Assembly (NCBI GenBank): GCA_008632985.1
Contig: QPGO01000004.1
Coordinates: 868,001-932,000 of the forward strand
DNA length: 64,000 nt
From: Psammoneis japonica
Lineage: Eukaryota
Reading direction: 5' to 3'
Translations under genes and position numbers: made by a program
The notes under the pieces: generated by a model
Seen by the model: the letters and a program-made list of their open reading frames with translations, nothing else
The model's database searches: none
What the model was told of the DNA's origin: nothing
In this document: positions 14,401 through 62,696 of the stretch, in pieces
Layout of the letters: each line of letters opens with the position of its first letter
Numbering within the stretch: position 1 is the first letter of the stretch

Positions 14401-16225
14401 CCGGAGACGGATCGATGTATGTGCAATATCTGTGGGACAAAGCCAGTGACAAATCCATACAAGCGAACAACAAGATCAGTTGTTGGAAACGGCAACGATG
14501 GAGAAACTACAGCAGTGGCAAGCGTTCGACCGGCTAGTGGTTTTGTGGAAATTGTGGCGGCTCCTCAGGTGGGGGTTGAATCTATGTGTGTGAATGACAC
14601 ACCATTACTTAACGCGGCTCACGTTCGAGTCGAGGAGCAGTTCAACATGTTGCAAGCCGTGAGAAGCGCCCTGTCACAACAAGTTGCCATTGCATCGAGC
14701 ATGAGCGCATCCCTCCCATCTGTTCCATATCAAGTGCAACCGGCTCTTTCAAATCTTAATGATCTGATACGGGATCAGAGGAAGCAAGACATTGATCCAT
14801 ACTGTTGTCCTGTCTTCCTACAATACAAGCTGCAGCAAAGCTACAGTGTGACGGGGTGCCGACCAAGAGGTCGACCAGCGCATTCTAAGGATTGCCCAAA
14901 GAGACAGCAGTCAAGGAGGTAGATGTTATCATTACTAGGCATACTTTATGTATTACTACTTTTGTTGACATTCTCGTGAGATAGCTACTACTCGTAGAAG
15001 CGATCTAGCCTAGAGACGCACAGTAGTGTTTTCGAAACAGAGCTGAGTTTCCATGAGTTACGAATTCACTATTTTATTTCTTATCTACCACACTTCTATA
15101 ACTATTGGTTGTTGTGTCCTCCACATACTTCATCACAATACCACACTCAAATACCACCTTTCAAGGGCAGGTGAACCCTATCGCAACGGAGATTCGGGTC
15201 TGCGGCGGTTGAAGGCACTCCCGTCCTTGGAAGCACCAGTCAACGCCTCACCGGGGGGCAACCCCTTGGCTCTCGTTGGCCGTCTCAATGTTCAGAGGTG
15301 GGGCCACATGAACATTATTGCAGAAAAAAAATTACCGAGGCGCTGCTGCAGTCAGCAACCTCGGCAGTAGCCCGTGTTATTTAAAGACGAGGGCAACCTC
15401 GTCTGCCGCTTATACACGGACTTTTCCAAAAGTGGTAGATTGTAGATTACCAGCCAAAACAAACCACACCCACAACCAACATGTGACATCCATTCCATCA
15501 TATCCCGGTCAACAGCGCTTGTGGTGCCGCCGCACTCAGCAATTCCAATGAACCCTGAAAAGCCACCACTCCAACAACTTCTAAAGCCTCGTCAACGAAG
15601 GGTGAACACTCGGCTGAAGCCAAAAAGGCAACAATACAAAGCATCAGCATGAGAGACGCCATGAATGATCAATGCTTAAAGGAGGGCTCTTCAATCTGTC
15701 AAGAACGAACAGAAATTGCAACGCAAGAGCGGTGAGAGACGAGTTCAAAAAATGGAAAAAGTACCAAGCATTTCTTATCCATTTTTCACGTTTTTCATAC
15801 ATCTCTTTTCGTATATTCATTCATCAGAGAGAGTTTTAATGCGTGCTTTGTTGTCACAACAGTATCACAAGTGACGGCGACAATTTCGACTACCGGCTCT
15901 TGCAGCTCTCATGGTCGATTTTTTGTGTGGTGTCGGAGGGAAACTCCTGAATTGCGTAGATTTCTACGTAAAATTCATACTAGAGATACTTCAACACTAC
16001 AATGTCTCGATCTGTGTCACCACACCAAATTACTTCAACATGGGAGCACCCGGAGATCTGACACATCGGGTGGTGAAACGGGAGAAAGAATTGACGATGG
16101 CTCTTCAAACCACTTCTGCCTTTTAGATCAAGCTCGCTGCCCTCGCAACCCCTTCCTCTCTCCTTCCTTTCTCTCCTCCTCCTCCTTCTTTCTCCTCTCC
16201 CCTCCCCCCCTCTCTTGGAGTCACT
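11467..16225 (+). repeat. Copy 2 of the ~4.77-kb tandem unit, ending at an assembly gap
   Basis: Starts tcgagggaggattaggaatgg at 11467; colinear with copy 1 up to the Ns at 16226. Confidence 0.97.
11729..14922 (+). CDS. ~1060-aa DDE-transposase-like protein (RNase H fold, Mutator-like motif order), copy 2, with one 1-bp frameshift near 14085
   Basis: Candidate triad SDHTF (D), YSDTWP (D), SKLEKAH (E), with LGLFHW between the second D and the E; CNEKGQV strand; Zn-binding clusters CKRC..H.H..C, CIDGEC..CNKC and a C-terminal CC..H..C. Confidence 0.7.
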
Positions 16226-45658: not shown

Positions 45659-45700
45659 GTATACTACAAAGGGAATTCATCTTAATGCATTAAAGTTAAT

Positions 45701-46882
45701 CTACGCTGATGCAATAATGTAGATAGATTTACGCCCTGCATTCCATTGTTTCTCCTGTTGATGTTGTGCGTTGTCGTTTACAAGGCCAGTTTCCAATACC
45801 CGAATCTCGCTCCTTTGAAGACTTTCTGTCAAAATTGTACAATATTCCTCGAAAGGCTTTTCGGCCTCCAAGATACAAGACACGTCCATGCAGGATATCG
45901 GTGGCTTAACGTGAGTTGGCTTGCTCGATTGCTGAATGGTTGTGCACTCGGCTTTAAAGTGTCCAACTATTCCACACCTCCAGCAGGGAAAAGAGGAAAA
46001 AACTTCTTTGATTGCAGCAGTACGCTCATCGTGATCTAAAGGAAGCAAATCACAGGCAGTCACATAGTGCGATGAGCTATGGCATAAAGGACACGGGAGT
46101 TTACGACCACGTCCGATTGCCTGGTCTCTTCTCTCCATTGCCTCCAAGCGAATCTGTCGTTGGTCTGGCGTTTCGTAAAGGGGGATCTCAATGGTTCTAG
46201 AAATACTTTCCTTCTTACTTGTAACAGCGCGCGGTAGACAGCATGGCGCCAAGCACAGAAAAGGACATTTTGCTGGACCCAGTCCATTCACCAAGCCGAT
46301 ACAAGCAGGCGAAAGCATTTTACACAAGTGAATGCCAATCATTGCCAAGGGTGAAGGTAGCGAGTTGAATCGATCAAAAAGAATGTCCGATTCGTGTAAG
46401 TTGCATCGCTCCCAAGTTTCGATATGGGGTCGATGGTCAGCCTCGCATGATTCATTGGCGGCCATGATGTGACTCCAATCAATTGGTGCCTTGTCCAGCA
46501 TGACGATTCTACCGACTCGATTATCCCCTTGAAAAACGTACGAGCAAAGCATCGAGAAGACGCCTTTCCCACAACAAACATCAACCACTGTCACCGGTTC
46601 CACTTTAGCAGAGGACTTCTCCATCCATTCTAACAACGAGGTCAAGGCAACAATCGATTCTTCAACTTCGTGCAACAAGCTCGATTTGTTGAGCAAAGCT
46701 TGCCATCCGGTTTGTCCACCCCACTCGTGCCCCCATTTTCTCAATATCGATATGACATGCTGAGTCACGGCTTGACAGCGCTGGCTCTCATGCAGAGAAG
46801 ATGACAGTCCGTTCTCTTCCAAACGAGCAGCGGCCTTCCACACCCGCCAATACGACCCTGGTGTCTCAGTTTCGTCCACCAT
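45701..46882 (-). CDS. SAM-dependent methyltransferase-like protein with two CCHC knuckles
   Basis: VVDVCCGKG motif I, IGIHLC..LS, LAPCC; CPLC..H..C and CWRC..GH...C. Confidence 0.85.
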   Translation of the reverse strand: MVDETETPGSYWRVWKAAARLEENGLSSSLHESQRCQAVTQHVISILRKWGHEWGGQTGWQALLNKSSLLHEVEESIVALTSLLEWMEKSSAKVEPVTVVDVCCGKGVFSMLCSYVFQGDNRVGRIVMLDKAPIDWSHIMAANESCEADHRPHIETWERCNLHESDILFDRFNSLPSPLAMIGIHLCKMLSPACIGLVNGLGPAKCPFLCLAPCCLPRAVTSKKESISRTIEIPLYETPDQRQIRLEAMERRDQAIGRGRKLPCPLCHSSSHYVTACDLLPLDHDERTAAIKEVFSSFPCWRCGIVGHFKAECTTIQQSSKPTHVKPPISCMDVSCILEAEKPFEEYCTILTESLQRSEIRVLETGLVNDNAQHQQEKQWNAGRKSIYIIASA

Positions 46883-47858
46883 GGTTTTGGTTTGCAGTTT
46901 TTGCACCGCCTCGCACCTCTTTCACAGCCACAACATGGCGCTCAACGCGCGCTTTGAATTCCGCGCCCGTTTCACTTGGGACTGACGTTGCTGTGGTCCC
47001 GCCACCCTTTGCCATCTCTTTCCCCCGCATGCCTTTACCATCATCTCTCTCCGATCCGGCAGCTACTTCGATGCCTCCTGCTGCACCTCATGTCTCTCAT
47101 ACCTTCCGCTCTGCACAGGCACTCTTTACTCTCAGTAAAAAAATCCACAGATCAGATCATGATGAATGTGCGAATGATGCCAAAGAGATCACAATGCGTG
47201 GTCGTTGCAGGGGGTCTCTTTAGAATGGATGTCAGTGCCACGAAAAGATGCTGCACTGAAAGCATGTTGGTTCTGTGGTGTCTTTTCAGAGGGTGCATCA
47301 ACCCGGGTGTGCCATGCACTGAAGAAGGAGTGCAGGAGATGGAGTCACCAAAACATGAGTTGCTGCTCCAGCCCACGCACTTTGATGAACGGCTGTGTCT
47401 CACTGTCTTCATGAGCATCACATGAGGACATTGTGGTTGGCATCATTCATCAAAAATGTGCCATCATCTTAAATGAGCTGCTCTCAAGAAGGTGGGTGTC
47501 CACAGCTCTCTTGCTCTGCCCGCGTCCCTGCTGCCAAGAGACGAGGAGCTCGACAGCACATTTCTCACTTTTGTCAGCATCAACTTGATCACAGACCTCT
47601 TTGGCTTGACAGTGGTCTTTTGACAGTGCCCACTGATGTGGCCCAGCACAATTCACAGATGGGGCATCATCAACACTTTGAAACAAGCTTCAAAATCTTG
47701 TCCAGCCAACTCTTTTTTTGTCCTCTTCCACCTTCTTTGTGCGCAAAGCCTTCAAATGATGGCCAGCACACCTTTGCAACACCTGCTCAATGGCAAGGCA
47801 ACTGCAGAGCACAAAACAACAACGGACAATGAAGAAACTGCAAGTTCTTGAAGATGAG

Positions 47859-48664
47859 AAATGTCACAAAAACAATTGCTGCAGCACTGGCCAATGAGTG
47901 AAAGAGAAGCAACCACTTTGCAGTGCAAAAAGCACCATGTGAAAAAGAGAGCGGCTCTTCCCTTCACCAAACAAGAAAATCCCTCCCAACATTTTCCCCT
48001 TTCTGGCACCTGGCAGACCATCATCATGTGACAGCATGGCTTCAAACACACCCCCAACAGCTGTGCAGCCAGCATCAGAGGAGAACAAGTGCCTCTCCTT
48101 GGAGCTTGGAGAGTGTCCTTGCTGCCAAAATGTCACAAAAACAATTGCTGCAGCACTGGCCCATGAGTGAAAGAGAAGCAACCACTTTGCAGTGCAAAAA
48201 GCACCATGTGAAAAAGAGAGCGGCTCTTCCCTTCACCAAACAAGAAAATCCCTCCCAACATTTTCCCCTTTCTGGCACCTGGCAGACCATCATCATGTGG
48301 CAGCATGGCTTCAAACACACCCCCAACAGCTGTGCAGCCAGCATCAGAGGAGAACAAGTGCTTCTCCTTGGAGCTTGGAGAGTGTCCTTGCTGCCAAAAT
48401 GTCACAAAAACAATTGCTGCAGCACTGGCCAATGAGTGAAAGAGAAGCAACCACTTTGCAGTGCAAAAAGCACCATGTGAAAAAGAGAGCAGCTCTTCCC
48501 TTCACCAAACAAGAAAATCCCTCCCAACATTTTCCCCTTTCTGGCACCTGGCAGACCATCATCATGTGACAGCATGGCTTCAAACACACCCCCAACAGCT
48601 GTGCAGCCAGCATCAGAGGAGAACAAGTGCCTCTCCTTGGAGCTTGGAGAGTGTCCTTGCTGCC
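47859..48664. repeat. 269-bp tandem repeat, 3 near-identical copies
   Basis: aaatgtcacaaaaacaattgctgcagcactgg recurs at 47859, 48128 and 48397. Confidence 0.97.
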
Positions 48665-48768
48665 CCCCCCCCCCCAAGATCTGAAAGGAGCACAAAAAGT
48701 TGCCAGACAAAAAAAATGTTTTTCCTCTTGCTGACATTGCAAAAAGAAAAAGAGACCAAAAAGCAAGA

Positions 48769-49013
48769 TGACAGGATTTGAACAAGATTTTAGTTTGTCA
48801 CACACAATTGTGTGTGCTCTCAGTTCCACGCGCGTCGCGCGATGCAGTTTGCTTTCGAGCCACGCGGCTCACAAGAATGACAACAGCAGTGCTGATGTCA
48901 CGACACCAGTCTTTCGGCTCCTGCAATGGTCTCTGCATGGAGACTCATCTGCCATTTAGACAGCAGCAAGGAGTCATTGTTTTCTTCCACCCAGTCATCT
49001 TCGCTTGCTGTCA
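48769..49013 (+). repeat. 5' LTR (245 bp)
   Basis: Direct repeat of 54353-54599 with TG...CA ends. Confidence 0.95.
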
Positions 49014-50227
49014 GATCAACAGCCTTGCTCTTCATTGTCCACTGAGCATTCATCATCATCATCGAGAAATTTTTCGATGACGCGCACCGTTGGCGGTGGA
49101 AGCACACATCTACCTTCTTCACTGCTGGATGCTGGATTAAATCCACACATTTGGATTTATCCAATGCCTCCCATCGTTGGATGCATTTGTTCAACGTGTG
49201 TTTGTTTGACCAGGAATTCCCGAATTCTCAAGCATCTGAGATTCCAGATTCCTTGTGGCGGATCCTGCCAATCCATCCGCTCGTGTCCATGCGCACACGA
49301 TGCAAACCCTTGACTCTGGCCCTGCTCCACGCACACCAAGTCTGCCACCTTGCATCTGCGCTGGATTGCTGGTCTTCTACAGCCCTGCAAGGTCCACAAG
49401 GACAACTGTGAGAGGGACGCGTTCCAGCTCTGGGTGGGACCTTGCACTGCTGCACTGTGACATCAACAGTTTTTTGGATCACGTCGCATGTCGCGCACGC
49501 ACATTTCTGCGTGTTGCATTCTACGAAATTGTTTCATGCTCCCTGTTTTGTGAAGCCAAAGGCTTTCTATTTTCAACAGTTGTGAGAATGAAAATGTGCT
49601 GGGCATGTTCTTCAATGTCTGAAGAACACACCCGGGCAAACTGTCAATGATGTGCTGCAAGCATGGAGGAGGAGATGCATTCGTAAAATTGCCTCTTTTT
49701 CTGTTGGCAATCATTCATGTTTTCATTGCAGCAGGAATTTACTGCAGAGCTTGCACATGGAATTCTACGGGCCCAATGTCACACGGAGTCCCACCTGGGA
49801 CTGGAACCCATCGAGGAAGCAGTTCGTGATCACAGCCTGCGTTGGGGTGAGGGTGCATTTCCCATGTTTGTTCGTCCCTCCACAGCGCCAAATTTGGCCG
49901 GCCTGATCGGGTCACCCAACCGACATAAAATGAGAACGGTTCGGAGGTCTTGTCCACCTCTGGCCAGCTTGTCGGCAGGGGTTTTTAACCCGTTACTCCG
50001 CTCTCAGGCAACCCAAAGCATCGCCAGCTGCGGGTTCAGACGTGCCGGCACAACTCTACAGACCAGATGGGAAGCTTGGCACTTAACTACAAACAGGATG
50101 TCATGGCCCGGCGGCTTCTGACTCTTGAGACAGTTCAAGACATCAAGTCAAGATTCAAGTCAAGTTTCAAGTCATTTCAAGCTCACCCTCCGACTCTAGC
50201 TGGTTCCGACATTCACCCAGTTGCAAC

Positions 50228-53200
50228 ATGGTTCTCACCAGGCAACAACAAATCAATGGCCTCGAGCACATTCTAGGCACTGTTCTGAATCAAGCTGCAG
50301 ACAGTCCATTGCGCTCCGCTCTCAACATTGATGGAGCCGATTCGCATCAGGACCTTTTCACTTTTACACCAATGCAATTGGATGTCCTCGTGCACAACGA
50401 CGGCACCAGTCAAATGCCCTTGCCACATGGTTGCAAAGCACAGATGGCTGTGCTGACCAGCCTGCACATGGCAAAAGCGCGTGGCGGCGTGGATGTCAGC
50501 AATGACCCTCAACTGTTCATGCAAGAGGAGCTCACCAACTGTCATCTCAGTCCTGAGCATGTGGCATCCCTCTCCATGGGTGCAGCACCATCTGCTCCCA
50601 CCCCTGGCTTGTTGCCACCCAAACCACGTGATCCCGTGCGTGACTTTAAATGAGGCATCAAACGTGACCCGCTTGCCTTCGTGCTTCTCAAGTCTGACAA
50701 ACAGTGGCACACGTGGCACATCTCCATCATCGCACAGGCCCACTCCCAAGACGTCGCATGCATTCTTGATCCGACGTACAAGCCCTCTACAGCTGAGGAC
50801 AAGGCCCTGTTTGCTGAACAACAGAAGTGCATGTTCGCCGCATTTGAACGGATTTTGCAGAATGACAAAGGCAAGGCTCTTGTTTGTCAACATGTCGGCT
50901 CCTCTGATGCTCAAGCAGTGTGTCGTGATCTCTCCAAGCATGCCCTTGCTTCTGCTCATGCATCCCTGGAGTCCTTGACCCTTCTCACGTACCTCACCAC
51001 TGCTCACCTTGGTGATGGCACCTGGAAAGGATCTGCTCATGCCTTCATGCTCCACTGGCAGGACCAGCTCCACAAGTGTGAAGCTCTTGTCCCGGGTGCG
51101 GACCATTTCTCTGCTGGCCAGAAACATGTCATGCTTGAGAACACCGTTCATCCCATTGAGGAACTCCATTCAGTGAAGAATCAGGCCGATCAGTTCTGCA
51201 CGCAGAATGGAAAGGGGCTCTCTTACGAAGAGCACTGTGTGCTCCTGCTCTCTGCTGCAGCACAGTGCGACAGCACGTTCACCCCCAAGACGGCTCCTCG
51301 CGCCCCGCGCCGTGCCATCTACGAACATGACCTGGTCCCTGACGACCCTGATGACGATGCATTCTTTGACATCGACAGGGATGTTGACGTCATTCAAGCT
51401 CATGCTGCACAAACTCGCGGCAATTCCCTCACCAAGGAACAATGGCATCGCATCCCGCCGGACCATCAGCGCATTTGGGACACCTTGCCCCAATCCACTG
51501 AGGCCATCATTCTTGCCAACTGCCATGACTCGATGGCGGTCAACCTGCATGACCTCCGCCTTGGCAGTGATGGCGACGTCAACTTGTCCGCCAACACTCA
51601 CGATCTTGCGTCAGCCTCCACACAATCTGACGCCACAGCCAATGCAGCCGATGCCAACCCCATTCTGGCTCATCTCACCAGGCGCAAGCCTCTGCCACCC
51701 GGCGACTTGCAACATCTCCTGGCACCTGAATGGCCTCCTTCTGCCTGTTCTGGTGAGAAACCGCCCGGATCTGCACCTTCCGTCCACTTTGACGCGAAGC
51801 CCATTGACACTGACATTGAGATCAACGGCCACAAATGCCATCGCATCAACAACCACAATGTCGTCTGCTCTGCCTCAACCCACAAGTCAACTCACAAAGG
51901 TGCTCTCATGGATCATGGTGCAAACGGTGGCATCGCCGGTGATGATGTTCGTGTCATTGCCCGCGCTGGTCGCCAGGTTGACGTCCAAGGTGTCGACGAT
52001 CATCAACTGGTGGACATTCCCATTGTCGCTGCCGGTGGTGTCATCCACACACAACGCGGCCCTGCCATTGCCATTCTTCACCAGTGTGCCTGCACTGGAA
52101 AGGGGAAGATGATGCACTCTTGCAGCCAGCTCAACCGGTGCAAACACGATGTCAACGATTGGTCCATCAAGGTCCCCAATGGTCTGCAGCACATCACCAC
52201 CATTGATGGATGCGTCGTGACCATTTGCATTAAAGCCGGCCTCCTGCACATCGCCATGCGCCCACACACCGACGCCGAATGGGACACTCTGCCGCATGTC
52301 ATTCTCACTGGTGATGACACATGGGATCCATCTGTCCTTGACCACCAGTTCATGGATGATGAGACGTGGTGTGATGCCATGTCTGACCTCCAAGATGACC
52401 CAACTGCCAACCTCTTTGATGAGTTTGGCAACTGTCATCACCACCATGTTGTCAACAATGCCATGCTTGCACACTCCGTCCTTGATGATCACCTGCTCCC
52501 GACATCTGATTTCTTCTACGAATGCCATGAGCGCGAACTCAATCCCAAGGATCCTGACTTTGAGTCCCTCTGCCCCTGCTTTGGCTTTCTCCTGAAGGAC
52601 ACTGTCCGCCGCACTTTTGATTGCACGACGCAGTGCGCCCGCATGCCAGCCAGCATGCACCTGAAAAAGGCGTGCAAATCACCCAACCCAGCTCTCAATG
52701 TCCACCGACGCAATGAACCCGTTGCCACCAACACGGTCTGCTCCAACACCCCTGCCATTGACTCTGGTTGCACCAGCGCCCAGCTCTTTGTTGGCACGGA
52801 ATCTCTTGTCACTGACGTGCATGGCACCAAAACTGACAAAGAATTTGTCAACACCCTCGAAGACAACATTCTCGCAATCGTGGTGCCCGTCCAAGCTCAT
52901 CAGCGACCGTGCTCAGGTTGGGATCAGCAACAAGGTTCTTGGCATCCTTCGTGCCCTCTTCATCTCCAGTTGGCAAAGCGAGCCTCACCACCAGCATCAG
53001 AATTTTGCTGAACACCGCTGCCAAACTGTGAAGACCATGGCCAACACTGTCATGGATCACTTCGGGTCCCCGGCTTGCACCTGGCTGCTCGCCCTGATGT
53101 GCGTGTGTTTTGTGCTCAACCACACGGCATCCGCCAAGCTCCACTGGCATGCCCCCACTGAGGTGCTGTCCGGCTCTGCTCCCGACATCAGCCCGCTCCT

Positions 53201-54300
53201 CCGCTTTCAATGGTGGGAACCCATTTTCTGCCACCTGGATGATTCCGACTGGCCGCCCAAATCCCGTGAATTACGTGGTCGCTTCGTTGGCATCGCCGAA
53301 CACGTTGGTCACCAAATGATGTTTAAAATTCTTTCTGTCAACACTCAGAAGATTCTCTGCCATTCCAACGTGCGCTCCACCCATGATCCGTCTGCTCCAA
53401 ACCTGTGTCTTGATCCTCCTGACAAGAAATCTGCTGACCCTGTCATTAAATCCCGCCACGACTCCGAGAATTCGCCAGACTCACCAGATGGGGAGGCGAT
53501 CAGGATGCCCAAAATGCCGGTCTTTGACCCCGAGGATGTCATGGGATGCACCTTCCTCATGAAGCCACAAGAGGATGGACAACACCTCAGAGCCCGCATC
53601 GTCAAAGCCGTTGAGGACCATGACTGGAAAATCAGAGGCAATCCCGAACTGGTCAAGTTCATTTGCTCCATCAACAATGACGAATGCGAGGAAGTCCCAG
53701 CCTGCAATGACATCATGCACCACATTGAGCAAGAAGACGAGGACCCAACTCTCTGGAAGTTCCAACACATCGCATCGCATGAAGGACCATTGCGACCCCA
53801 TGATCTCTCTTGGAAAGGCTCAAGCTGCAACGTCATGCTCGAATGGGAGAATGGGGAGATCACGTCCGAACCCCTTGCCATCATTGCCAAGGATGACCCC
53901 ATCACCTGTGCCATCTACGCGCGTGAGCACAGCCTTCTAGAAACTGAAGGATGGAGATGTTTTTGCAAGACAGCACTTCGTCAGAAGAAGCCATTCCACA
54001 TGGCCAACCAAGCCAAGTTGTGCTCCTTTTGTGCTGCACCACGATGCAAGTGCGGGTGTGAAGTGCCACGGGACTACAAGCATGCCATGGCCCTTGATGA
54101 GCACAATGGCAACCACAAGTGGGGAGACGCAACGGACCTCGAGATGACTCAGCTTGATGAGTGCGAAGTCTTCCACGACTGCAGACACCACAAGGATTCC
54201 AGTGCTCCATTGGGACACAAGAAGATCCAGGTGCATCTCGTCTGTGATGTCAAACATGACGGACAGCACAAAGCAAGGCTTGTTGCCGATGGACACCTCA
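50228..54300 (+). pseudogene. Copia gag-pol pseudogene (RT truncated, no RNase H)
   Basis: Protease-like ALMDHGANGG, integrase-like LISDRAQ and QNFAEHRCQTVK, EWENGEITSEPL, RT start VHLVCDVKHDGQHKARLVADGHLT; stop at 50651 and a frameshift near 52875. Confidence 0.9.
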
Positions 54301-54352
54301 CAAAATCCGACTTCAAATCTGTCGCTGTTGACCCCTCAAGCAAACTGGGGAG

Positions 54353-54599
54353 TGACAGGATTTGAACAAGATTTTAGTTTGTCACACATGATCACATGTG
54401 CTCTCAGTTCCACACGCATCGCGCGATGCAGTTTGCTTTTGAGCCACACGGCTCACAAGAATGACAACAGCAGTGCCGACATCACAACACCAGTCTTTCG
54501 GCTCCTGTGACAGTCTCTGCGCATGGAGACTCATCTGCCATTTAGACAGCAGCAAGGAGTCATCATTTTCTTCCACCCAGTCATCTTCACTTGCTGTCA
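54353..54599 (+). repeat. 3' LTR (247 bp)
   Basis: Direct repeat of 48769-49013, preceded by the PPT and followed by the TSD. Confidence 0.95.
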
Positions 54600-57075
54600 C
54601 AAGATGCGCTGCAGCAGCATTGTTTTTGCTGCAGTTTCTGGCGGGGCAGATGTGCTTCATCCTGGGCATCTCACCACAACTTGTTTTTTCACCACTGGCA
54701 GCTGCCCGTCCTGTGCTGAGCAGTGTGCTTTTCTGACACAAGTGACAGCCAGCCAACAGGGTTTTGCAGCATCTTTTGGCTGGGTCAAGTCATGGGGCAA
54801 GTTTTTCTCATGTGGGCACATTGTGCATCAGCCTCTGCATGTTGAACACTGCCCATTCTTGTGCAAATTAAGCAGATGTGCATGACAAAGGGACAAATCA
54901 TCTTTTGCATTGCTGCTTTTTCATCCAGTGATTGCCCCATTGCTTGTTTGCATTGCACCTTGAGCACATGTGGCACTCTCAATGCTGGATGCTGGTTTCA
55001 CTTGCAGTTGAAACATTGTCTCCAATGGCGCCAGCTCCAAGCAGTTTGAGCCTTTCTAAGAATTTGAGCTGAGCAACCAACTGGGTGTGCATTGAGACCA
55101 TTTTCCCCTCTTGCACTCCACACACAAAAATCATGCACATTGCAACAAAAGCTCACCATGACAATGACGAGCAATTCATTGGCAATGCCTTCCCATGATG
55201 TGGTGCCCATTGGTGTGCTCAAGAATGCAAACGCCGCCCACTCCTGTCTCCTGAACATTTGACACCAGCCATCTCTGGTCATGTGCTTGGCAAGTGGCCT
55301 CACAGTTGGCAGAGTGAGGTTGGGTTAAAACATTTTTCTTCTCAATGCAAAAACAACAAACACTGTTGTTGTTGCTGGCCCACCCTGCTGGTGGCGGTGG
55401 CAAATCACTTGTTTGTGATGTCATCAGCAATTGCCTTTGTGGCACAAGCCTTGCTGTTGTTGCAACAAAGCAACAACAACAACAACCACAGTGCAGCCCT
55501 GTTGCTGTGTCATTTTGCTTGAACAAAATTTCCAAAAATCCTGCTCAAATGAAAGGGTTTTTTTGACATGATGCATTGCCTCCCAGCACTGGTTCCCTCA
55601 TGGGGCAGCTTTTTTTTGTTTCCCTTGCCTTGGTTGATCATTTCTGATGATGAGCTGTTGCAGCTCCTTTTTTTCATTTTATGCCAGGGTTTGCTGTGGC
55701 TGATTGCTCTTGACAAACCCATCTTTTTGTCAGCTTTGCTCTGCCCTTTTGTTCTGAATTCCACAAGCTGCGCCACAGCTCTTTTGCCCAGCTGCCCTCA
55801 GTCTCTTTGCCAACACTCTCCCACTCATGAGACTGCAACTTGTGCCAGCTGCAGACTGTCACACCCGTGAAGGCATTGGCTGGAATCAAAATTTTCCATC
55901 CTTCTGTTGGCCACCTCTGCTGGACGTGGCGCATCATCATGTCGTCTTCCTCATTGCTTGCAGCAACTGACTGTTTAGATTGGTTTCAAAACACACTGCC
56001 AGTTTGCTTGTTGCTGCTGTTGATTCTTCCAAGCACATTGTCTGCTCTTGATGGTGGACAAAAATCAAGACATTTCATGTGAGCCTTTTGACTTGGGGGG
56101 ATTCTTGCAGCAAAATGCACCACTCCATTGATGTCATTTCCCTTGCTGGAATGCCAACAAAATTGCAAAAGGCACATTGTGCAGCCACCTTTGTTCATGG
56201 AGGTCCCTCTTTCTCTGACATGATGTTTGATCCCAACTTCTCTTTGCTGCAAGCAGGGCTTCCAACATTGGTGTAAATTCTCTGGACACCATGGCAGTTC
56301 TCAGGCTGGACTTTCCACCTTCCAACAGGGTTGTGACAGCAATGGTGACTCCTCCTTTGACAGCCATTTCCTGTCAAGTCACACATGTGTTTTGCTGGTG
56401 ACATTCATTTGCCTGTTTTTTTTTTGAATTTGGATCTCACATCTCATGGAGGCAAAGGCATCACTGGAAGTGACAGAATTCAAAATGCACAACTCAGCAC
56501 AAGTCCTTTGCTTTCTTTGTTCACACATTGCTCTTGCCAGGTGTTCTTCAAGGTTTTGCTTTCACACCCTGCCTTTGTCCCAACTGTGCCAAGCCATGCA
56601 GTGTGCTGCCTTGCAATGATTGCACCTGCTGCAAGTGCCAACAGCAACCCCACCTGTTGCTGCACCCAGCTTTGAGCTGTGTTGGTGTGGTGGCTTTGAT
56701 TCTGCCACACATGTTGATGTTTTTGTGCACAGCAATTGCCCTGTCAAGACTGCCCAGTTTTTTGCTGAAGCCATTGATGACATCAGGTCCTTTCTGCATG
56801 CTCCTGCTTTGCTTTTTTCACAGAAATGTGGCAAAGGTCAAGCCAAAGGAGGCTGTGAACCAAACAGCTCCAGCTTTTGTTCCAGCAGGATTCTGGTTTT
56901 TGAGACAGCCAAGGACAAATCCAAGAGAGCAGAGCTGCGTTGTCACTTGGGCTCATCATGCTGGGTGCCACTGGCAACTTTGCAAAATGGATCATGACAG
57001 ATTTCAGGAACCTGAGTGAACCAATTGACCAAGCAGTTTCTGCTCTGGCACAAAGTCAAGCACACTGATGGCTTC

Positions 57076-57690
57076 TGTCAGGAACCCATCATCATTTTGT
57101 CCTTCTGTGGTGCAAAACAATGGCAGCTTGCAAGCAGCTGATGCTGCCTCTCTTCTTGTTCCCCAGCTCTCAATCTTGTCAGCAGCAGTGGTGGGCTCTT
57201 CTTGTTTTTCATTTCCTCCTCACCTGCTTGAAACACGTTTTTTGATCCAAGCACATTGACAGCCATCTGACAGATTTTGCCAACTCAACATTTCCCCACT
57301 CAGTGCCATCATGCCACCCTCTGCCTCCACATCATCTCATTCGGCATTTCATTTGGCAGCTTTTTTGGAGTCATGACAGTTTTGGAAACCCACACAAACA
57401 CCAAATCTGATGCATCAAAGGATTTTGTCAGGAGCTCATTGTCACCTTGTCTTTTTGCACTGCAAAACAATGGCAGCTTCAGCTGCTGGCACTGCTGCCA
57501 TTCTCTTCTCATTTCCCAACTCTCAATCTCATCAGTGGTGTGTGCTCTTGTTTTGCCTTTTCTCCTTGGTGCCCACTTGTGATTTTGCCAACTCAACATT
57601 TTCCCACTTTGGCGCCAATCTCCAGTGCACCATTGTGCCACTCTCTGTGTCTCTGCATCACCTTCTTTGGCAGCTTCTTTGGCTCTGTTG
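57076..57690. repeat. Old, diverged ~310-350-bp tandem duplication
   Basis: tgcaaaacaatggcagctt at 57111 and 57461; gattttgccaactcaacattt at 57273 and 57581. Confidence 0.8.
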
Positions 57691-60600
57691 TCATGCAGTG
57701 CCCCAACAATCTTGGGGTCCTTTGCAGTCATTGGCAGCCCCAAAGAGCCATCACTTGAATCCATCCATTTCAGTGCTGCCACTCACGCCCTTGATCCCTG
57801 CACACATTGACTGCAGCAACCACTCCAGTCTCATCACACTCTGTTGACTTAACATCATGCATCTGCCATGGAAAACAGCATCGCCTCTTCATCCTCTGAC
57901 CTGCAATCTCTTCTTCCCATCTTGCTGCATTTTTAGACTTTGCCTGTGCACTCAACTCTGTGGTCAGATTGGGGAGCTCATTCCCAAACATGCCATCCTT
58001 TGTGTTCTTGTGGTTTGGGATTTCTGCTGTGGCACAAGTGGTGTGCAGCAACTCTGCAACCAATCATTTCTCTGGGGTCTGACTGGGCACAGATGTTCTT
58101 TTCCTCAAGTTGTCTGCTGCACCTGGTTTGGGATCACAGTCTTGCAGGTTGATGCACTTCCACTCAAACATTTTGCCACTGCCAAGCCTTGCACATCATC
58201 AGTTGGAAGTTGAATGAGTGCACTTTGCCATCATCAATGCAATGTTCCAGGATGAGTCTTCTGGCACCACTCAACAGTGTTTTGGAAGTTCATGTTGTGG
58301 CAGTGTGTCATTGCATGAACTCAATCAAGCTGTTTGCTTGGCACCCAACATGCCATTGGGTTCTCATGCCTGTCACTTCCCTTGTGCAGTGGGTGTGAAC
58401 AATTTGAGTGCATCATCTGTGGGACCTGAAAACAGGGGGGTTTCCATGCAATTGTTCAATTGTGCCCATGCCAACACTGAAGAGCAGTGTGTTTTTCCCA
58501 CAGCTGGAAATGTCAAATTGAGTTGGCTGTCCAACCATTCAACAATGAGAGTCACATTGCCATGATGAGCCAGCCGCTGAAAAAAGCAACAGAAAATTGG
58601 CAGCTTTGTGAACTCAATTGTCATGCAAAGCACTTCTTTGATTGTCAATGCAGCACATTCATTTGCCCACTTTGTGCACTTGTGGAAGGCAAATGAGAAT
58701 GCTTGCTCAGCTGTGACAATTGTTCCATCTGCTGAGCTCATTGTTGGTTCTCAGATGCACCCAAAACATTGCAATCAGGTGATGCTCAGCTTCTGTGAAA
58801 AGCATGACAGACATGCCAGCTGCCTGTTGACATGGCATTTCATTGCGCCAGTGCCACAAACTCAATTCCACCTCAGAGCCACCACTGCCCAAAAAGGCTG
58901 CAGTGGTGCAGCAGCGCAATGTGCACAGCACAGTGCAAAACTGGCCTCCCAAAAATGGAAGCCACCATCCCATGCAGATCTCCTGTGGTGCGCTGATGGC
59001 TTGACCCATGGCTTCTTCCTTGCTCACACAACCACCACATGTCAGTTGATGAAGCTGTGGGTGGATGATTGAGTGAGAGTCTAAAATGCCTTCACTTGCA
59101 TTTGGGACAGGCAATTGCCAACAGCCCTTGCCTGTGAAACCCTTTAGATGACAACACCACTTTGACAGTGTTGAGCAGCTGGAGCAATCTGAGCATGAGC
59201 AACCTCCTTGCCAGAGACACACAAAGATGTGCCCCACCAAATGCCAGTGGCATGTCATTGAAAGCTGTTGCAACACTTGGAAAATGCACTTGCAACTGGT
59301 TTTGAGCAAGCAAAAACTCCCAGACCTGCACCTGCTGCACAGATTGCACTCCACAGCCAGGATGAAAGGAAAAGATGCCACCACTGAGGGGGGTGCAGCG
59401 GCAATGCACACTTGCCATTGCATGGCAAGCACAACAGCTGATGTGTGCTGAGCAACCCACACACCTGTCAAATCAGTGCCTTCCAAAAAATTGCTGGAGC
59501 TGTGAAAGTCAAAGATCGAAAACAACAATTTGTGCCAAATGAGCCCCCCATCAGCTTGCAAGCAGGCACACCAATTGGTGATGAAGTGCATTGGTCTGTG
59601 CTTTGAAGGGCTTGGAGAAAGTGCCACAAGACACACAAGTCAAACATCATCAGATGAACATGTGGCACGGCGTTGTCTTGGTGACCTTTTTGCGTGCACA
59701 TTGGAGTTTAAGAGACTCAACCACCTCAAAAGCAACAAGAAAGATGACAGCGGGGGTTTGCCAGGGACAATGGAAAGACAAACACAAAATGTGGGAAAGC
59801 TTGACTGGGAATTGCAAGAAATGAAAACTCCAAAGTTCCCAGATGCCTTCAATGTCTGGTTGGTGTCCATCATGACAGTGGCACAAAATTCAAAAATGAG
59901 CGACACTCTTAAAGGAGTGTGTTTGTTGGGTGGTGCTGGCTTGTCCCACACAACTGGAAAGCTTGTGTCAAGACACTGAGTTGAAAGACTCATGCAGCGC
60001 TGCAGTGTTGCAGCATGCCCAAGACTGGGAAAAAGAGCGAGGGTTGCATCAGCAGAGAATGAGAACCTGTGAAACAAATCAACCCCAAACAGGCAGGAGA
60101 CATTGCTTTCTGGGGTTGTTCCAACAGATCTCGTGGGTCAAGAGAGTGCTCAACACTGCACAGCAGCACTGGATGCTCTCTTGAAAGCATTGCGCCATTT
60201 CCATGATGTCAGCCTGAGCAAGATCGGGAGATGCCAATGGCAGGAAGCATCCAAAACAACCCCAAACTGCCTTCTTGCATTGACCCTCCACAAAAGCACA
60301 GAATGACTTGAACACCACATCACCCCTGCTGATGGTGAGTGACAGAATCCTTTCTGCAGACATGTTGTCGTGCTTGCGATGTTTGAGCTGTGTGCCAACC
60401 TTGTTGCACTTTTGATTGACAAATGTCGCGCACATGACACAAAGAAGAATGCAGGCGATGATGTCCATTCCTTGAAATCTCTTTGCAGAGTGCACAGGCA
60501 TCTTGGCAACTCACCTCAGGATTCATGTCCTGAGCTTGTTTGATGACATCCAAGTGCAAGTGCTCAGCTGCTTGTGGGTCATTCAAGGACTTGCACACAC

Positions 60601-60843
60601 CCAAAGCCTCGGGGCTTTCATGTTGAATCATTCAATTGCATTCAATGTCGAGTTCGTCCCAAGATCCACGTGATGAAATGAACTTGCTTGAAATAATGAG
60701 ATGTCTGATGTCAATGTCGGAGTGAGCAGCTCTCTAGATTCAGACAGCAGCTGAACACTGTGGGATGGTTGGATCGGGCTGGAGGTGGTGGGGACAGACG
60801 AAAGCACAAAATGTGCGTAGAAATCACCGTACAGACCCAAATT

Positions 60844-61141
60844 CAGGGTTAACTAATTGCAAAGTTTTCTGCAGCAATCAGATTGCAGTCAGTCGATTGC
60901 ATCGCTGTGGTCTGACGAACAGATTGCAATCGCCCCGCCGGCCAGGCGCGCCCCCCGCGCAGGGGTTTTAGCTATAAAAAGAGCTCGAATTTCGATTGCA
61001 ATCGATTGCAACAGTCGATTTAGATTGTGATTGCGACCTCGGCTCTTTCCCGACAATCAGGTCATTGCAATCGAGTTTGCAACAGCGATTGCAATCAAAG
61101 TGAGGCTGATTGCAATCGATCCTAGCAATTAGTTAACACTG
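60844..61141. mobile_element. hAT-type MITE (298 bp)
   Basis: 17-bp TIRs CAGGGTTAACTAATTGC / GCAATTAGTTAACACTG (1 mismatch), 8-bp TSD CCCAAATT, and many internal GATTGC(AATC) repeats. Confidence 0.92.
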
Positions 61142-61292
61142 CCCAAATTACCATCGAGCATCGAGCGGCCTGGCTGCTGGCTGTCGGAATGAAGAAACGG
61201 CCAAGCAAAGAGCAACGAAGAACGAAGAGCGCAAATCTGATCGAGTAAGATTCTAAAATAGCACGCCCTAACGTTGGTTCTTCAGGAGGACC

Positions 61293-62696
61293 ATGCTGAC
61301 TCGGTTCCTTAAGTTCCTGTTGATCGCGCTGCTGCTGACAGTGGTTTTCGTGTGGGTCCACCTGCTGGGTCGGCTGGGTGAACTTGACCGCTGGCATGAA
61401 GAGCAGGACGGTCTGTCACCACACCAGCTGTCACACTCGATTGGCTTCCCAGAACGTGTTCCTTCGTCAGTTAAGAAGGAATCGAAAACAACCCAAAGTG
61501 GCGGCGACCAAGGCCAATGCCGAGCTGTGACGGAGCTGCTTCCGCCGGCTCTTCCCATCAGTCCGTATCAGGTGACCGGGAACATGAGTTCTGTTGTAAC
61601 AGCCTTCAGGCAAGCCATGACACAAGATGTGATAAAGAATGCCGTGGCTTGGATGCAGCTTGCCATGCCCAACACTGGCAGTACTAGCATGGAGGGGTAC
61701 ATGGCACTTGGGAGCAACATGACACCTTTAATGCGGTCGGGGGGGTGTAGCCATGCATGTGTCACGCGGATTGGACCCACGCTAATCCCAGCGGCGATCA
61801 GTGGTCTCGCGGCCACAATGGGGTTTTCTTCGGCGCAGCTGCAGGACTGCGGAGCCGAATTGTTCTGGCGACTTAGCAGCGTAGTGCGTTGTCCACACAG
61901 TGGCAGCCACTTTGACTATACCGAGACAGTACAGCATGTCCGTCACTGCTTCCCTGGGATGAACAGGCGTCATAGCTTAGAAGCCGTCACCATTGGAACG
62001 ACAATACGTAACCCAATCCAATACCACTACAAAGATTTCAGAATTGGCCATCCTAAAGTGGGTTTTGACGTAGGGATTTGCCAATTATGGGAGAATTTGA
62101 CTTCTTCAGGTCCTGTCGGTCAGGATAACACAACATTTGGCTTTGCTTGTGAAAGGAATGGGCGCTTTGGCGAATTGGGCATCAGCAGTGATTTTCAAAG
62201 TTACGTTCGATTTGCCCACCACCGCTGGAACATTTTCACCCGCAATCTGGCTGGAACGCTGGCACCTCAGCACATTTCCATTTCACTTTTTAAGGACTCA
62301 CTTAACATGCATAGAAAGGACTTCACTCGCCCGAAGGCCATTGAACAGAACAAGCTCGGGGTCGATGCGCCAGACTACAAGACAGCAATTAAAAACCTTG
62401 AAGCGATGCCTCACTTTTCAATATTCGAACGCATGCCTGAGAGCATAGAGCTGCTTTGCTTTACATACTGCTACAATTGCACGGCACTTGGTTTCACGTA
62501 CAAGCCGAAAACCCGCAAACATGTGCCGGACGATGTAGCAGAGGTGGCGGGCAAGTACCACAGGTTGGACTTGCTCCTTTATGAACATGCCAACAGGCTC
62601 TTGTCACGTCGAATATCATGGATGCGGGAAGCTAAGGCCAAAGGGGTACAGTGTGACATTTTGATCTCTGGATGTGGTTTGATCTGCAAGGATTGA
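61293..62696 (+). CDS. Type II membrane sulfotransferase-like protein
   Basis: N-terminal TM; 5'-PSB-like MPNTGSTS, 3'-PB-like TIRNP, ERMPESIELL and LDLLLYEHA. Confidence 0.72.
   Translation: MLTRFLKFLLIALLLTVVFVWVHLLGRLGELDRWHEEQDGLSPHQLSHSIGFPERVPSSVKKESKTTQSGGDQGQCRAVTELLPPALPISPYQVTGNMSSVVTAFRQAMTQDVIKNAVAWMQLAMPNTGSTSMEGYMALGSNMTPLMRSGGCSHACVTRIGPTLIPAAISGLAATMGFSSAQLQDCGAELFWRLSSVVRCPHSGSHFDYTETVQHVRHCFPGMNRRHSLEAVTIGTTIRNPIQYHYKDFRIGHPKVGFDVGICQLWENLTSSGPVGQDNTTFGFACERNGRFGELGISSDFQSYVRFAHHRWNIFTRNLAGTLAPQHISISLFKDSLNMHRKDFTRPKAIEQNKLGVDAPDYKTAIKNLEAMPHFSIFERMPESIELLCFTYCYNCTALGFTYKPKTRKHVPDDVAEVAGKYHRLDLLLYEHANRLLSRRISWMREAKAKGVQCDILISGCGLICKD

What the first reader, a model, noticed from the sequence alone, without database searches (positions are those of the whole stretch)
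47140..60700. Candidate genome-defence mutator: repeat-targeted TpA->TpG/CpA hypermutation (reverse-RIP), seen as a 13.5-kb TpA desert
Seen: TpA is almost gone from this transposon block. By eye there is no TA between about 56276 and 57849 (~1.57 kb) and only about a dozen in 54600-60680, where hundreds would be expected from base composition. CpG is also scarce and TG/CA is in excess. Flanking host genes (to 46882, from 61293) have normal TA, so the edges are sharp. Established: 5mC deamination explains CpG->TpG/CpA but not TpA loss, and fungal RIP creates TpA (CpA->TpA), the opposite polarity. Inference: a second process causes A:T->G:C transitions specifically at TpA in repeats. Candidates are a TA-preferring DNA adenine deaminase (TadA/ADAT-like), a thymine or adenine modification that mispairs, or error-prone repair synthesis (Pol eta favours A->G at WA) coupled to methylated chromatin. 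I know of no description of such a system, but I cannot search the literature.
Basis: partly seen in the sequence, partly recalled or inferred. Interest (0 to 1): 0.95.

Follow-up and report, generated by a model that had tools for sequence, protein, structure and literature searches.

The report
TpA-to-TpG/CpA hypermutated transposon island
A 13.5-kb block of dead mobile DNA in a diatom-like genome has had almost every TA step rewritten to TG or CA, the same odd mutation signature that a 2026 preprint reported in an unrelated alga, so this looks like a second lineage with that still unexplained DNA-editing process.

Summary
In 47140-60700 TpA is 51 observed against 843 expected (O/E 0.06; flanks 0.54-0.59). 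CpG O/E is 0.38 and TG/CA is 1.7-1.8. Both edges switch within one 200-bp bin.

The polarity could be tested inside the window. A 4.75-kb duplicate pair (6693-11446 and 11467-16225) differs at 96 substitutions, and 83 of them are TG/CA in copy A against TA in copy B. Outgroup proteins show that B is ancestral. A->G hits 81 of 281 adenines after T, against 2 of 1479 after A, C or G. The motif is T-A-Y.

The block holds a truncated Copia-type LTR element with Tyr codons turned into Cys/His. Its two LTRs differ by TG-versus-CA pairs. It also holds about 6 kb of unidentified sequence at flank-like depth.

Contigs of an independent run reproduce the sequence. Eighty related elements elsewhere are not TpA-poor.

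The same signature was described in Bigelowiella natans in a 2026 preprint, so the kind is known. The diatom-like host, the retrotransposon target and the motif are new. The enzyme is unknown.

The parts
47140..60700 (.). TpA/CpG desert with TG/CA excess (whole block)
   Evidence: TA O/E 0.06, CG 0.38, CA 1.69, TG 1.82; edges switch within 200 bp; deficits roughly balance the excess.
47140..48768 (.). Left part of unknown origin; includes three 268-bp tandem copies at 47859-48664
   Evidence: 2 TAs, TA O/E 0.02, CG 0.16; tandem family D1; a 299-bp X1 contig at depth 171.6, about 3 times the flanks; no protein similarity.
48769..49013 (+). 5' LTR, starts TG
   Evidence: 247-bp direct repeat with 54353-54599. 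All 14 substitution differences are of TA or CG type: 7 TG<->CA pairs and 7 CG against TG/CA.
49014..50227 (+). Leader between the LTR and gag; less depleted
   Evidence: 16 TAs, TA O/E 0.22; highest summed depth in X1.
50228..54323 (+). Hypermutated gag-protease-integrase and the start of RT of a Ty1/Copia-type element; the RT/RNase H part is missing. Fossil ORFs at 50654-53008 and 52665-54362.
   Evidence: tblastn covers residues 1-1407 of the 1881-aa gag-pol P0126; 6319 relatives; 186 relatives, many carrying PF07727. Tyr 0.4-0.6% against 3.6-3.7%, Cys and His raised.
54353..54599 (+). 3' LTR
54600..60700 (.). Most depleted part, of unknown origin, at flank-like depth
   Evidence: 13 TAs (O/E 0.03), CG O/E 0.13; one 5464-bp X1 contig at depth 70.9 with 1 difference; no family found.
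6693..11446 (+). Copy A of a 4.75-kb duplicated element; hypermutated tract at about 7920-11220
   Evidence: 81 of 141 TA sites converted in the tract, 0 of 36 in the first 1200 columns.
11467..16225 (+). Copy B, the unmutated reference state; ends at the N gap 16226-16239
   Evidence: outgroup proteins match B (36 residue matches) rather than A (3).
45701..46921 (-). Left flanking host gene (methyltransferase domain plus zinc knuckle), normal TA
61293..62696 (+). Right flanking host ORF, normal TA

Best explanation
The block is an island of dead mobile DNA in a diatom-like nuclear genome. Two separate mutation processes have rewritten it in place, and both end at TG/CA. The first is ordinary CpG->TpG/CpA decay, as expected from cytosine methylation. 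The second is much faster: a hypermutation that changes A:T to G:C only at TpA, with the strand-specific motif 5'-T-A-Y-3'. It acts on integrated DNA, hits both strands independently at each site, works in tracts with sharp ends, and does not need many copies. It never creates stop codons, so old reading frames survive as 'fossil ORFs' full of Tyr->Cys/His changes. This is the signature reported in 2026 for integrated viral DNA of Bigelowiella natans. Shown here: the polarity, the TpA specificity, the motif, the action after integration and the locality. Inferred: that the chemistry is deamination of adenine to inosine in DNA by a TadA/ADAT-type enzyme (my odds about 0.4), that silent chromatin guides it, and that it serves as a defence.
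For: Polarity and specificity. Copies A and B differ at 96 substitutions in 4761 columns, and 83 of them are G or C in A against A or T in B. At the 44 amino-acid differences, three outgroup proteins match B 36 times and A 3 times (BLOSUM sum +207 against -110), and the codon differences split 44 nonsynonymous to 10 synonymous. A->G counts, both strands pooled: TA 81/281, AA 1/499, CA 1/516, GA 0/464. No site changed in the reverse direction. C->T occurs only at CG, 5/332.

Motif. TAY 65/172 against TAR 16/109, p 2.5e-5. The outcome follows the flank: RTAR gave 8 CA and 1 TG, YTAY gave 27 TG and 12 CA, and YTAR kept TA at 13 of 16 sites. The TAs that survive in the block are YTAR in 26 of 51 cases against 260 of 1252 in host DNA, and RTAY in 2 of 51 against 366 of 1252.

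Both strands. The series of TG and CA outcomes has 40 runs against 41.1 expected.

After integration. The two LTRs of one element differ by 7 TG<->CA pairs and 7 CpG-type changes, and by no other substitution.

The block itself. At columns where relatives have Tyr, the window ORFs have Cys or His in 12 of 20 and 10 of 16 aligned columns. At columns where relatives have Arg, the window has Arg->Cys/His/Gln.

Not inherent to the family. TA O/E is 0.46-1.00 in all 80 related metagenome loci.

Not an assembly error. X1 contigs show 0-1 differences over 11.6 kb.

Precedent. In mutation-accumulation lines of B. natans, 230 of 231 mutations in the two viral regions were A->G or T->C, and those fell on TpA (preprint Results).
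Against: Many other copies of the Copia family seem to share the TA-poor state. One search listed 40 places where most laid contigs differ from the window copy. Only 2 of them restore TA, while 17 restore CG. Part of the TA loss may therefore have been inherited through amplification of an already mutated, non-autonomous copy, rather than made in this copy. That list is biased against densely variable stretches, and 109 further places were not shown.

The LTR differences could also come from recombination between copies.

Copies A and B lie next to an N gap and may be two haplotypes laid in tandem. This does not change the spectrum, but it weakens any statement about duplicates.

No genome was available, so no enzyme gene, no methylation data and no genome-wide test exist. 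Only contigs could be laid, not raw reads, and X1 may be the sample that the assembly came from.

No sequence evidence separates adenine deamination from a thymine-directed chemistry.
Confidence: 0.8

Rival explanations
1. Same phenomenon, different chemistry. The thymine of R-T-A is the target. It could be oxidised by a TET/JBP-type enzyme to 5hmU or 5fU, which mispairs with G, or it could be excised and repaired with errors, giving T->C. The A->G changes would then be the same event on the other strand.
For: The signature is symmetric (47 TG and 34 CA, interleaved), so T-A-Y on one strand cannot be told from R-T-A on the other. From memory, not from any call: dinoflagellate 5hmU and trypanosome base J favour T before A, and 5-formyluracil pairs with G.
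Against: Nothing direct. No modified-base data and no genome to look for TET/JBP genes. The preprint's authors favour adenine deamination and name an ADAT2-like candidate, but they did not test it either.
Confidence: 0.2
2. The TA loss arose before integration, by editing of the retrotransposon RNA or errors during reverse transcription, or in an old master copy. It then spread by amplification, so the island only inherited a TA-poor family sequence.
For: In one search only 2 of the 40 best-supported family-versus-window differences restore TA. The element lacks RT/RNase H and belongs to a very abundant family, with summed depth 100-1400 times that of the flanks (the tool warns that this figure is not a copy number). 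Because TA->TG/CA makes no stop codons, mutated copies could still be mobilised in trans (inference).
Against: A->G and T->C are interleaved on one molecule, which editing of a single RNA strand cannot give. The two LTRs of one element differ by 7 TG<->CA pairs. The A/B element and the flank-depth 6-kb part carry the same signature without any sign of retrotransposition. Relatives elsewhere are not TA-poor. In B. natans the mutations arise in place in single-copy DNA.
Confidence: 0.1
3. Artefact: an assembly or consensus error, or a modified base that the sequencing chemistry misreads.
For: The window has an N gap and a suspicious tandem duplicate. Only contigs could be checked, not raw reads.
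Against: Contigs made by a different assembler from run X1 agree with the window at 0-1 differences over 11.6 kb. A strand-specific misread would give all-TG or all-CA stretches, not interleaved outcomes. Public proteins from three other sources show the same Tyr->Cys/His pattern.
Confidence: 0.03
4. Selection or inherent composition: the elements avoid TA, for example to escape a TA-specific nuclease or TA-targeting transposons.
For: TA is under-represented in the host too, at O/E 0.54.
Against: The changes are mostly amino-acid replacing (44 of 54 differing codons) and move away from conserved residues. Conserved Tyr is lost. Relatives have TA O/E 0.46-1.00. A host gene with low TA (16-21 kb, O/E 0.36-0.45) shows no TG/CA excess.
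Confidence: 0.03

Closest known systems
TpA hypermutation of integrated viral DNA in Bigelowiella natans (Mettrop et al., bioRxiv 10.64898/2026.01.13.699255; I read the abstract, Results and Discussion, and searched the text for terms; the supplements were not seen)
   Same: Almost only A->G and T->C, at TpA, giving TpG/CpA. Confined to foreign or silent DNA with regional limits. The long-term trace is TpA depletion with CpA+TpG gain, and it is enriched in CDS with RT and DDE domains. A single-copy target is hit.
   Different: The host here is diatom-like (Stramenopila), not a chlorarachniophyte. The target is an LTR retrotransposon island, not NCLDV or virophage inserts. Depletion here is near saturation (O/E 0.03-0.08, against 0.45 for their NCLDV region). 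CpG loss covers the same domain, whereas 'CpG' does not occur in the preprint's main text. The T-A-Y flank preference and the lack of strand clustering are not reported there: 'trinucleotide' and 'flanking' occur 0 times in the main text. Here there are no mutation-accumulation lines, so ongoing activity is not shown.
Fungal repeat-induced point mutation (RIP)
   Same: A DNA-level transition hypermutation, limited to a region, that permanently disables mobile DNA and leaves a dinucleotide signature.
   Different: RIP is C->T at CpA and creates TpA. Here TpA is destroyed. RIP needs duplicated sequence and usually marks both copies. Here one of two adjacent copies is untouched, and a part at flank-like depth is the most depleted.
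5-methylcytosine deamination (CpG decay) in methylated transposons
   Same: It explains the CpG->TpG/CpA half of the signature: Arg->Cys/His/Gln, 5/332 in the A/B pair, and 17 of the 40 listed family differences. Related elements elsewhere show CpG decay alone, for example L015, L021 and L046 with CG O/E 0.18-0.19 and TA about 0.5.
   Different: It cannot remove TpA. The TA process is separable and far faster: 81 of 141 TA sites against 5 of about 166 CpG sites in the same tract. P0125 and P0028 have lost Tyr but kept Arg.
ADAR hyper-editing and APOBEC3 editing of retroelements
   Same: Deaminase-made clustered transitions that get fixed in genomic copies of retroelements. ADAR prefers U before the edited A (as cited in the preprint).
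   Different: Those act on RNA or on single-stranded cDNA before integration and mark one strand. Here both strands are hit at random and after integration. From memory: ADAR and fungal mRNA editing prefer G after the A (UAG), whereas here TAY is preferred over TAR.
TadA/ADAT2-ADAT3 tRNA adenosine deaminases, and their DNA-editing derivatives
   Same: The natural target is A34 preceded by U33. From memory, bacterial TadA reads U-A-C-G, which fits T-A-Y. The preprint names an ADAT2-like candidate.
   Different: No gene from this genome could be examined. Native DNA activity of these enzymes on double-stranded chromatin is not established.

Membership tests
TpA->TpG/CpA hypermutation of foreign DNA (B. 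natans type, 2026 preprint) | Mutations are almost only A->G and T->C | tested here: met
   83 of 96 substitutions between copies A and B, polarised by outgroups.
TpA->TpG/CpA hypermutation of foreign DNA (B. natans type, 2026 preprint) | Mutations are confined to TpA | tested here: met
   81/281 at TA against 2/1479 at AA, CA and GA together.
TpA->TpG/CpA hypermutation of foreign DNA (B. natans type, 2026 preprint) | Local to foreign or mobile DNA, with host DNA alongside untouched | tested here: met
   Edges fall within 200 bp. In the A/B pair 0 of 36 TA sites are converted outside the tract and 81 of 141 inside it. A Copia element is identified. The origin of 7.7 kb of the block is unknown.
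TpA->TpG/CpA hypermutation of foreign DNA (B. natans type, 2026 preprint) | [quoted passage not shown] | tested here: met
TpA->TpG/CpA hypermutation of foreign DNA (B. natans type, 2026 preprint) | De novo events at about 1e-7 to 1e-6 per site per generation in some lines | not testable with these tools
   No lines and no raw reads were available. The only indirect hint is 14 TA- or CG-type differences and 0 other substitutions between the two LTRs.
TpA->TpG/CpA hypermutation of foreign DNA (B. natans type, 2026 preprint) | Acts on single-copy targets | tested here: inconclusive
   54534-59997 lies on one X1 contig at depth 70.9, against 58-66 for the host flanks. Contig depth is a weak measure, and the copy number at the time of mutation is unknown.
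Fungal RIP | C->T at CpA, creating TpA | tested here: not met
   0/517 C->T at CpA. The polarity is the opposite.
Fungal RIP | Triggered by duplication, with both copies mutated | tested here: not met
   Copy B carries none of the TpA-type changes that mark copy A: 0 of the 60 TA sites that A keeps in the tract read TG or CA in B, and over the whole pair only 10 of the 96 substitutions run the other way (T or A in A against C or G in B). The part at flank-like depth is the most depleted.
Fungal RIP | Depends on a RID/DNMT4-type enzyme and occurs before meiosis | not testable with these tools
   No genome is held for this window.
RNA editing fixed by retrotransposition (ADAR-like) | One strand only per copy, and shared by both LTRs | tested here: not met
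   47 TG and 34 CA outcomes are interleaved, with runs z = -0.26. The LTRs differ by 7 TG<->CA pairs.
Ty1/Copia LTR retrotransposon (for 48769-54599) | Flanking LTRs and a gag-protease-integrase-RT polyprotein | tested here: met
   247-bp LTRs. Collinear match to residues 1-1407 of a 1881-aa gag-pol. Relatives carry PF07727.
Ty1/Copia LTR retrotransposon (for 48769-54599) | Own RVT_2 reverse-transcriptase domain | tested here: not met
   No Pfam hit in the window ORFs. The match ends where RVT_2 begins in P0126, at residue 1367. This is a deleted, non-autonomous copy.

The most novel reading that the evidence does not exclude
Diatoms and chlorarachniophytes share an old enzyme system, guided by chromatin, that deaminates adenine in double-stranded DNA at 5'-T-A-Y-3'. 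It would permanently disarm silenced mobile or viral DNA whatever its copy number. It would be a mirror image of fungal RIP: it erases TpA and start/stop signals rich in TA (TATA boxes, TAA/TAG) while leaving fossil reading frames. Its gene could be found by matching TpA deserts to gene presence across SAR genomes.
Probability: 0.3. Interest if true: 0.9.

Novelty: new member of a known kind. Interest (0 to 1): 0.72.

Why it matters
Only one unreviewed preprint, on one rhizarian alga, describes TpA-specific A:T->G:C hypermutation, and its mechanism is unknown. A second case at near saturation, in a diatom-like genome and on retrotransposons, suggests that the process is widespread in SAR protists rather than a curiosity.

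The case adds features an enzyme must explain. These are the T-A-Y motif, independent hits on both strands, tracts with sharp ends, action after integration, and independence from CpG decay.

It also has practical consequences for annotation. Hypermutated elements keep long ORFs but lose Tyr, so they escape Pfam domain searches.

If the enzyme is a native DNA adenine deaminase, it would also interest people who build base editors.

Tried and rejected
RIP-like reading of the A/B pair (CpA->TpA in copy B): rejected by the outgroups.

Pfam on 134 stop-to-stop ORFs of the block: no transposon domain.

ESM Atlas. For the 785-aa ORF it gave only weak Copia-like leads, scores 0.84-0.86. For the 310-aa ORF at 58710-59639 it gave nothing usable.

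The A/B gene. No Pfam family above threshold in the window ORFs or in its three homologues (one sub-threshold E2-Crich match on P0001, E 0.0012). No PDB relative. Its nature, host gene or mobile element, stays open.

Whole genome: none is held. No genome-wide scan and no search for ADAT, TET/JBP or DNMT genes was possible.

Earlier notes of this scan: none on this genome and none for this sequence. The 8 notes shown of the 41 that hold 'TpA' concern phages or bacteria and do not bear on this case.

RNA: no RNA holder was listed for 50701-60700.

Tyr-poor relatives P0125 and P0028 searched in viral contigs: no locus.

Metagenome relatives: none of 80 has TA O/E below 0.46. One of the two search patterns requires Tyr and only the best 80 of 268 were kept, so this does not show that hypermutated copies are absent elsewhere.

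Literature searches for a description in diatoms: none found. One search turned up the B. natans preprint.

Full report
THE OBSERVATION

The desert is real and extreme. In 47140-60700 there are 51 TpA where base composition predicts 843 (O/E 0.06). CpG is 320 against 842 (0.38), CpA is 1.69 and TpG is 1.82. The sequence to the left has TpA 0.54 and CpG 0.96, and the sequence to the right has 0.59 and 0.88.

At the host's TA frequency a TA-free run of 1,575 bp has probability 4e-26. TpA and CpG switch together within one 200-bp bin on each side (47000-47199 to 47200-47399, and 60600-60799 to 60800-60999).

Measured against host O/E values, the block lacks about 406 TpA and 530 CpG and has about 1132 extra TpG+CpA. 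The other twelve dinucleotides stay within about 0.2 of the host values. A host gene at 16-21 kb (nucleoprotein TPR/Mlp domains) has low TpA (0.36-0.45) but no TG/CA excess. Low TpA alone is therefore not the signature.

WHAT THE BLOCK IS MADE OF

Direct repeats of 247 bp at 48769 and 54353 are LTRs. None of 134 stop-to-stop ORFs of 60 aa or more gave a transposon domain in Pfam.

The two long ORFs nevertheless have many relatives. The ORF at 50654-53008 has 6319 relatives at E<=0.001, the best at 49% identity. The ORF at 52665-54362 has 186 relatives, the best at 58% identity and E 2e-177. Many of these carry PF07727 (Copia-type RT), and some are named from the diatom Cylindrotheca closterium.

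A tblastn search with full-length gag-pol relatives shows that the element covers residues 1-1407 of the 1881-aa P0126 (50228-54323). It stops where the RVT_2 domain of P0126 begins. It is therefore a deleted, non-autonomous Copia-type copy.

Nothing in 47140-48768 or 54600-60700 resembles it or any Pfam family, and the origin of those parts is unknown.

The host genes of the window are eukaryotic. The best named relatives of one of them are pennate diatoms, Seminavis robusta at 42% and Cylindrotheca fusiformis at 41%. No hit exceeds 51%. I call the host diatom-like; this is an inference.

A POLARISED TEST INSIDE THE WINDOW

The window holds two adjacent copies of a 4.75-kb element, A at 6693-11446 and B at 11467-16225, at 97.8% identity. 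TpA O/E is 0.28 in the affected part of A and 0.62 in the matching part of B.

The copies differ at 96 substitutions and 9 single-base indels. In 83 of the substitutions A has G or C where B has A or T.

The element encodes a protein of about 1063 codons that has three distant relatives. At the 44 amino-acid differences these relatives match B 36 times and A 3 times (BLOSUM sum +207 against -110). The typical pattern is Tyr in B and in the relatives, and Cys or His in A. The differing codons split 44 nonsynonymous to 10 synonymous.

B therefore keeps the ancestral state, and A has undergone TpA->TpG/CpA. This is mutation, not selection, and it is not RIP-like CpA->TpA in B.

THE SPECTRUM

The counts below come from the affected tract, both strands pooled.
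- A->G by the preceding base: TA 81/281, AA 1/499, CA 1/516, GA 0/464.
- Of 141 TpA sites, 60 are kept, 47 became TG, 34 became CA and none became CG.
- No site runs the other way.
- C->T occurs only at CpG, 5/332.

The base after the adenine matters. TAY is converted at 65/172 and TAR at 16/109 (p 2.5e-5). GTA is converted at 14/93 against 67/188 for the other preceding bases.

The outcome follows the flanks strand by strand. RTAR gave 8 CA and 1 TG. YTAY gave 27 TG and 12 CA. YTAR stayed TA at 13 of 16 sites.

The TpAs that survive in the 13.5-kb block show the same bias. YTAR makes up 26 of 51 against 260 of 1252 in host DNA, and RTAY makes up 2 of 51 against 366 of 1252. This ties the block to the process seen in the A/B pair.

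TG and CA outcomes are interleaved at random, with 40 runs against 41.1 expected. The tract has a sharp start: 0 of 36 TpA sites are converted in the first 1200 columns, then 81 of 141.

THE SAME MARKS IN THE BLOCK ITSELF

Tyr makes up 0.4% and 0.6% of the two Copia ORFs, against medians of 3.7% and 3.6% in 60 and 35 relatives. Cys is 4.4% and 3.9% against 1.2% and 0.8%. His is 6.2% and 6.9% against 3.5% and 3.9%.

At columns where relatives agree on Tyr, the window has Cys or His in 12 of 20 and 10 of 16 aligned columns. At Arg columns it often has Cys, His or Gln, which is the CpG part of the signature.

The two LTRs differ by 7 TG<->CA dinucleotide pairs, 7 CpG-type changes and no other substitution. 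The simplest reading is independent hits on both LTRs after insertion, at a rate far above the background rate.

TA->TG/CA cannot create a stop codon, and it destroys TAA and TAG. Old frames therefore stay open, which explains the 785-aa and 566-aa 'fossil' ORFs that Pfam fails to recognise. This follows from the genetic code.

Eighty related Copia loci from metagenomes have TpA O/E 0.46-1.00. Several have CpG O/E 0.18-0.25 with TpA near 0.5, which is CpG decay alone. One caveat: one of the two search patterns contains Tyr and only the best 80 of 268 confirmed loci were kept, so mutated copies were disfavoured.

One public DNA run of the same organism code holds 0.80 of the sampled words of 50701-60700. 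Its contigs match the window with 0-1 differences over 44001-47888, 54534-60873 and 61113-62000. Depth is 58-76 both in the host flanks and in 54.8-60.8 kb. The LTR element collects 9335 contig pieces with summed depth 6,000-86,000, so it belongs to an abundant family, although the tool warns that this sum is not a copy number.

These are contigs, possibly from the sample that gave the assembly. They exclude an assembler error but not every chemical artefact. A strand-specific misread, however, would not give interleaved TG and CA outcomes.

A RESULT THAT CUTS THE OTHER WAY

One search listed 40 places where most family contigs differ from the window copy. At 17 of them the others have CG where the window has TG or CA. 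At only 2 do the others have TA, and at 1 the reverse holds. A further 109 places were not shown, and the list omits differences near contig ends, which penalises densely variable stretches.

Taken at face value, many copies share the TA-poor state. Part of the loss may have been inherited from an already mutated copy that kept spreading in trans. This does not touch the A/B evidence or the LTR evidence, but it limits how much of the block's loss can be dated to after insertion.

OTHER SOURCES

Five of 265 retrieved relatives of 250 aa or more have Tyr at or below 1.3%. P0125 (ENA), P0028 (JGI/IMG) and P0151 (NCBI) have Cys or His at 13 of 19, 21 of 29 and 5 of 8 aligned Tyr columns. P0125 and P0028 keep Arg at 23 of 27 and 32 of 41 Arg columns.

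The same process therefore seems to have hit other Copia elements in other data sets, and it does not need CpG decay. Their DNA and their organisms could not be obtained.

WHAT IS KNOWN

A bioRxiv preprint dated 2026-04-14 (10.64898/2026.01.13.699255) was found. I read its abstract, Results and Discussion; the supplements were not seen.

It reports mutation-accumulation lines of Bigelowiella natans. Of 302 nuclear mutations, 231 fell in two integrated viral regions, at about 6e-7 per site per generation. Of those 231, 230 were A->G or T->C, and those fell on TpA. The mutations appeared in only some lines, and one of the regions is single-copy. The genome also holds 124 clusters of windows that are TpA-poor and CpA+TpG-rich, and TpA-poor CDS enriched for RT and DDE domains. 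The authors propose an ADAT2-like adenine deaminase but did not test it.

The preprint's main text does not mention diatoms, stramenopiles, CpG, trinucleotide context or flanking bases. Eight library searches found no description in diatoms. Papers outside that library cannot be excluded.

MECHANISM

Shown:
- The process acts at DNA level and is TpA-specific, changing A:T to G:C.
- It has a T-A-Y flank preference.
- It hits both strands independently.
- It works in tracts with sharp limits.
- It acts on integrated DNA and is separable from CpG decay.

Inferred:
- The hits are adenine deaminations to inosine by a TadA/ADAT-type enzyme (about 0.4). From memory, bacterial TadA reads U-A-C-G, which fits T-A-Y, whereas ADAR and fungal mRNA editing prefer U-A-G, which does not.
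- An equally symmetric alternative is chemistry on the thymine of R-T-A, through oxidised thymine or error-prone repair (about 0.2).
- Silent, methylated chromatin guides the process rather than sequence repetition. The TpA and CpG edges coincide. The part at flank-like depth is the most depleted. One of two adjacent near-identical copies is untouched.

VERDICT

'Repeat-targeted' is not supported, and 'undescribed' is no longer true.

This is a new member of a kind that has only just been described: a second lineage, a new class of target, near saturation, and added detail on motif and strand.

Noticed in passing
window 6693-16239: Two 97.8%-identical 4.75-kb copies lie 20 bp apart, and the second ends exactly at a 14-N gap. 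This may be a real tandem duplicate or two haplotypes laid in tandem. If they are haplotypes, only one allele was hypermutated.
   Followed up: partly
window 6959-10147 and 11733-14925 (alignment columns 266-3455): The duplicated element encodes a protein of about 1063 codons. It has only three distant relatives among 5.8 billion proteins, no Pfam family and no PDB relative. Each copy carries frameshifts (about four in A, one in B).
   Followed up: partly
window 6801, 6833, 7163, 8262, 8285 (copy A): Five of the seven single-base deletions in copy A remove a base of a TpA (or the A next to it) that is present in copy B. This might be a by-product of repair at the targeted dinucleotide, or chance.
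   Followed up: no
window 47859-48664: Three 268-bp tandem copies, 99-100% identical and free of TA. An X1 contig covers them at about three times the flank depth, so the array probably arose or was homogenised after the hypermutation.
   Followed up: partly
window 60874-61112, and 60702-60747 / 63257-63302: A short stretch just outside the desert has summed depth 1722 in X1, so it is a repeat, yet its TpA and CpG are normal. A 46-bp repeat links the right edge of the block to 63257.
   Followed up: no
proteins P0125, P0028, P0151 (also P0240, P0187): Copia-type proteins from ENA, JGI/IMG and NCBI sources have Tyr at or below 1.3%. P0125, P0028 and P0151 have Cys/His at conserved Tyr columns, and P0125 and P0028 keep most Arg. 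These look like hypermutated copies in other data sets.
   Followed up: partly
loci L015, L021, L046, L006, L075: Related Copia loci from metagenomes have CpG O/E 0.18-0.25 and TG/CA 1.4-1.6, but TpA O/E is only 0.46-0.52. This is CpG decay without the TpA process.
   Followed up: no
window 16376-22558: A large host gene with nucleoprotein TPR/Mlp domains has TpA O/E 0.36-0.45 but no TG/CA excess. It is a useful negative control for scans based on TpA alone.
   Followed up: partly
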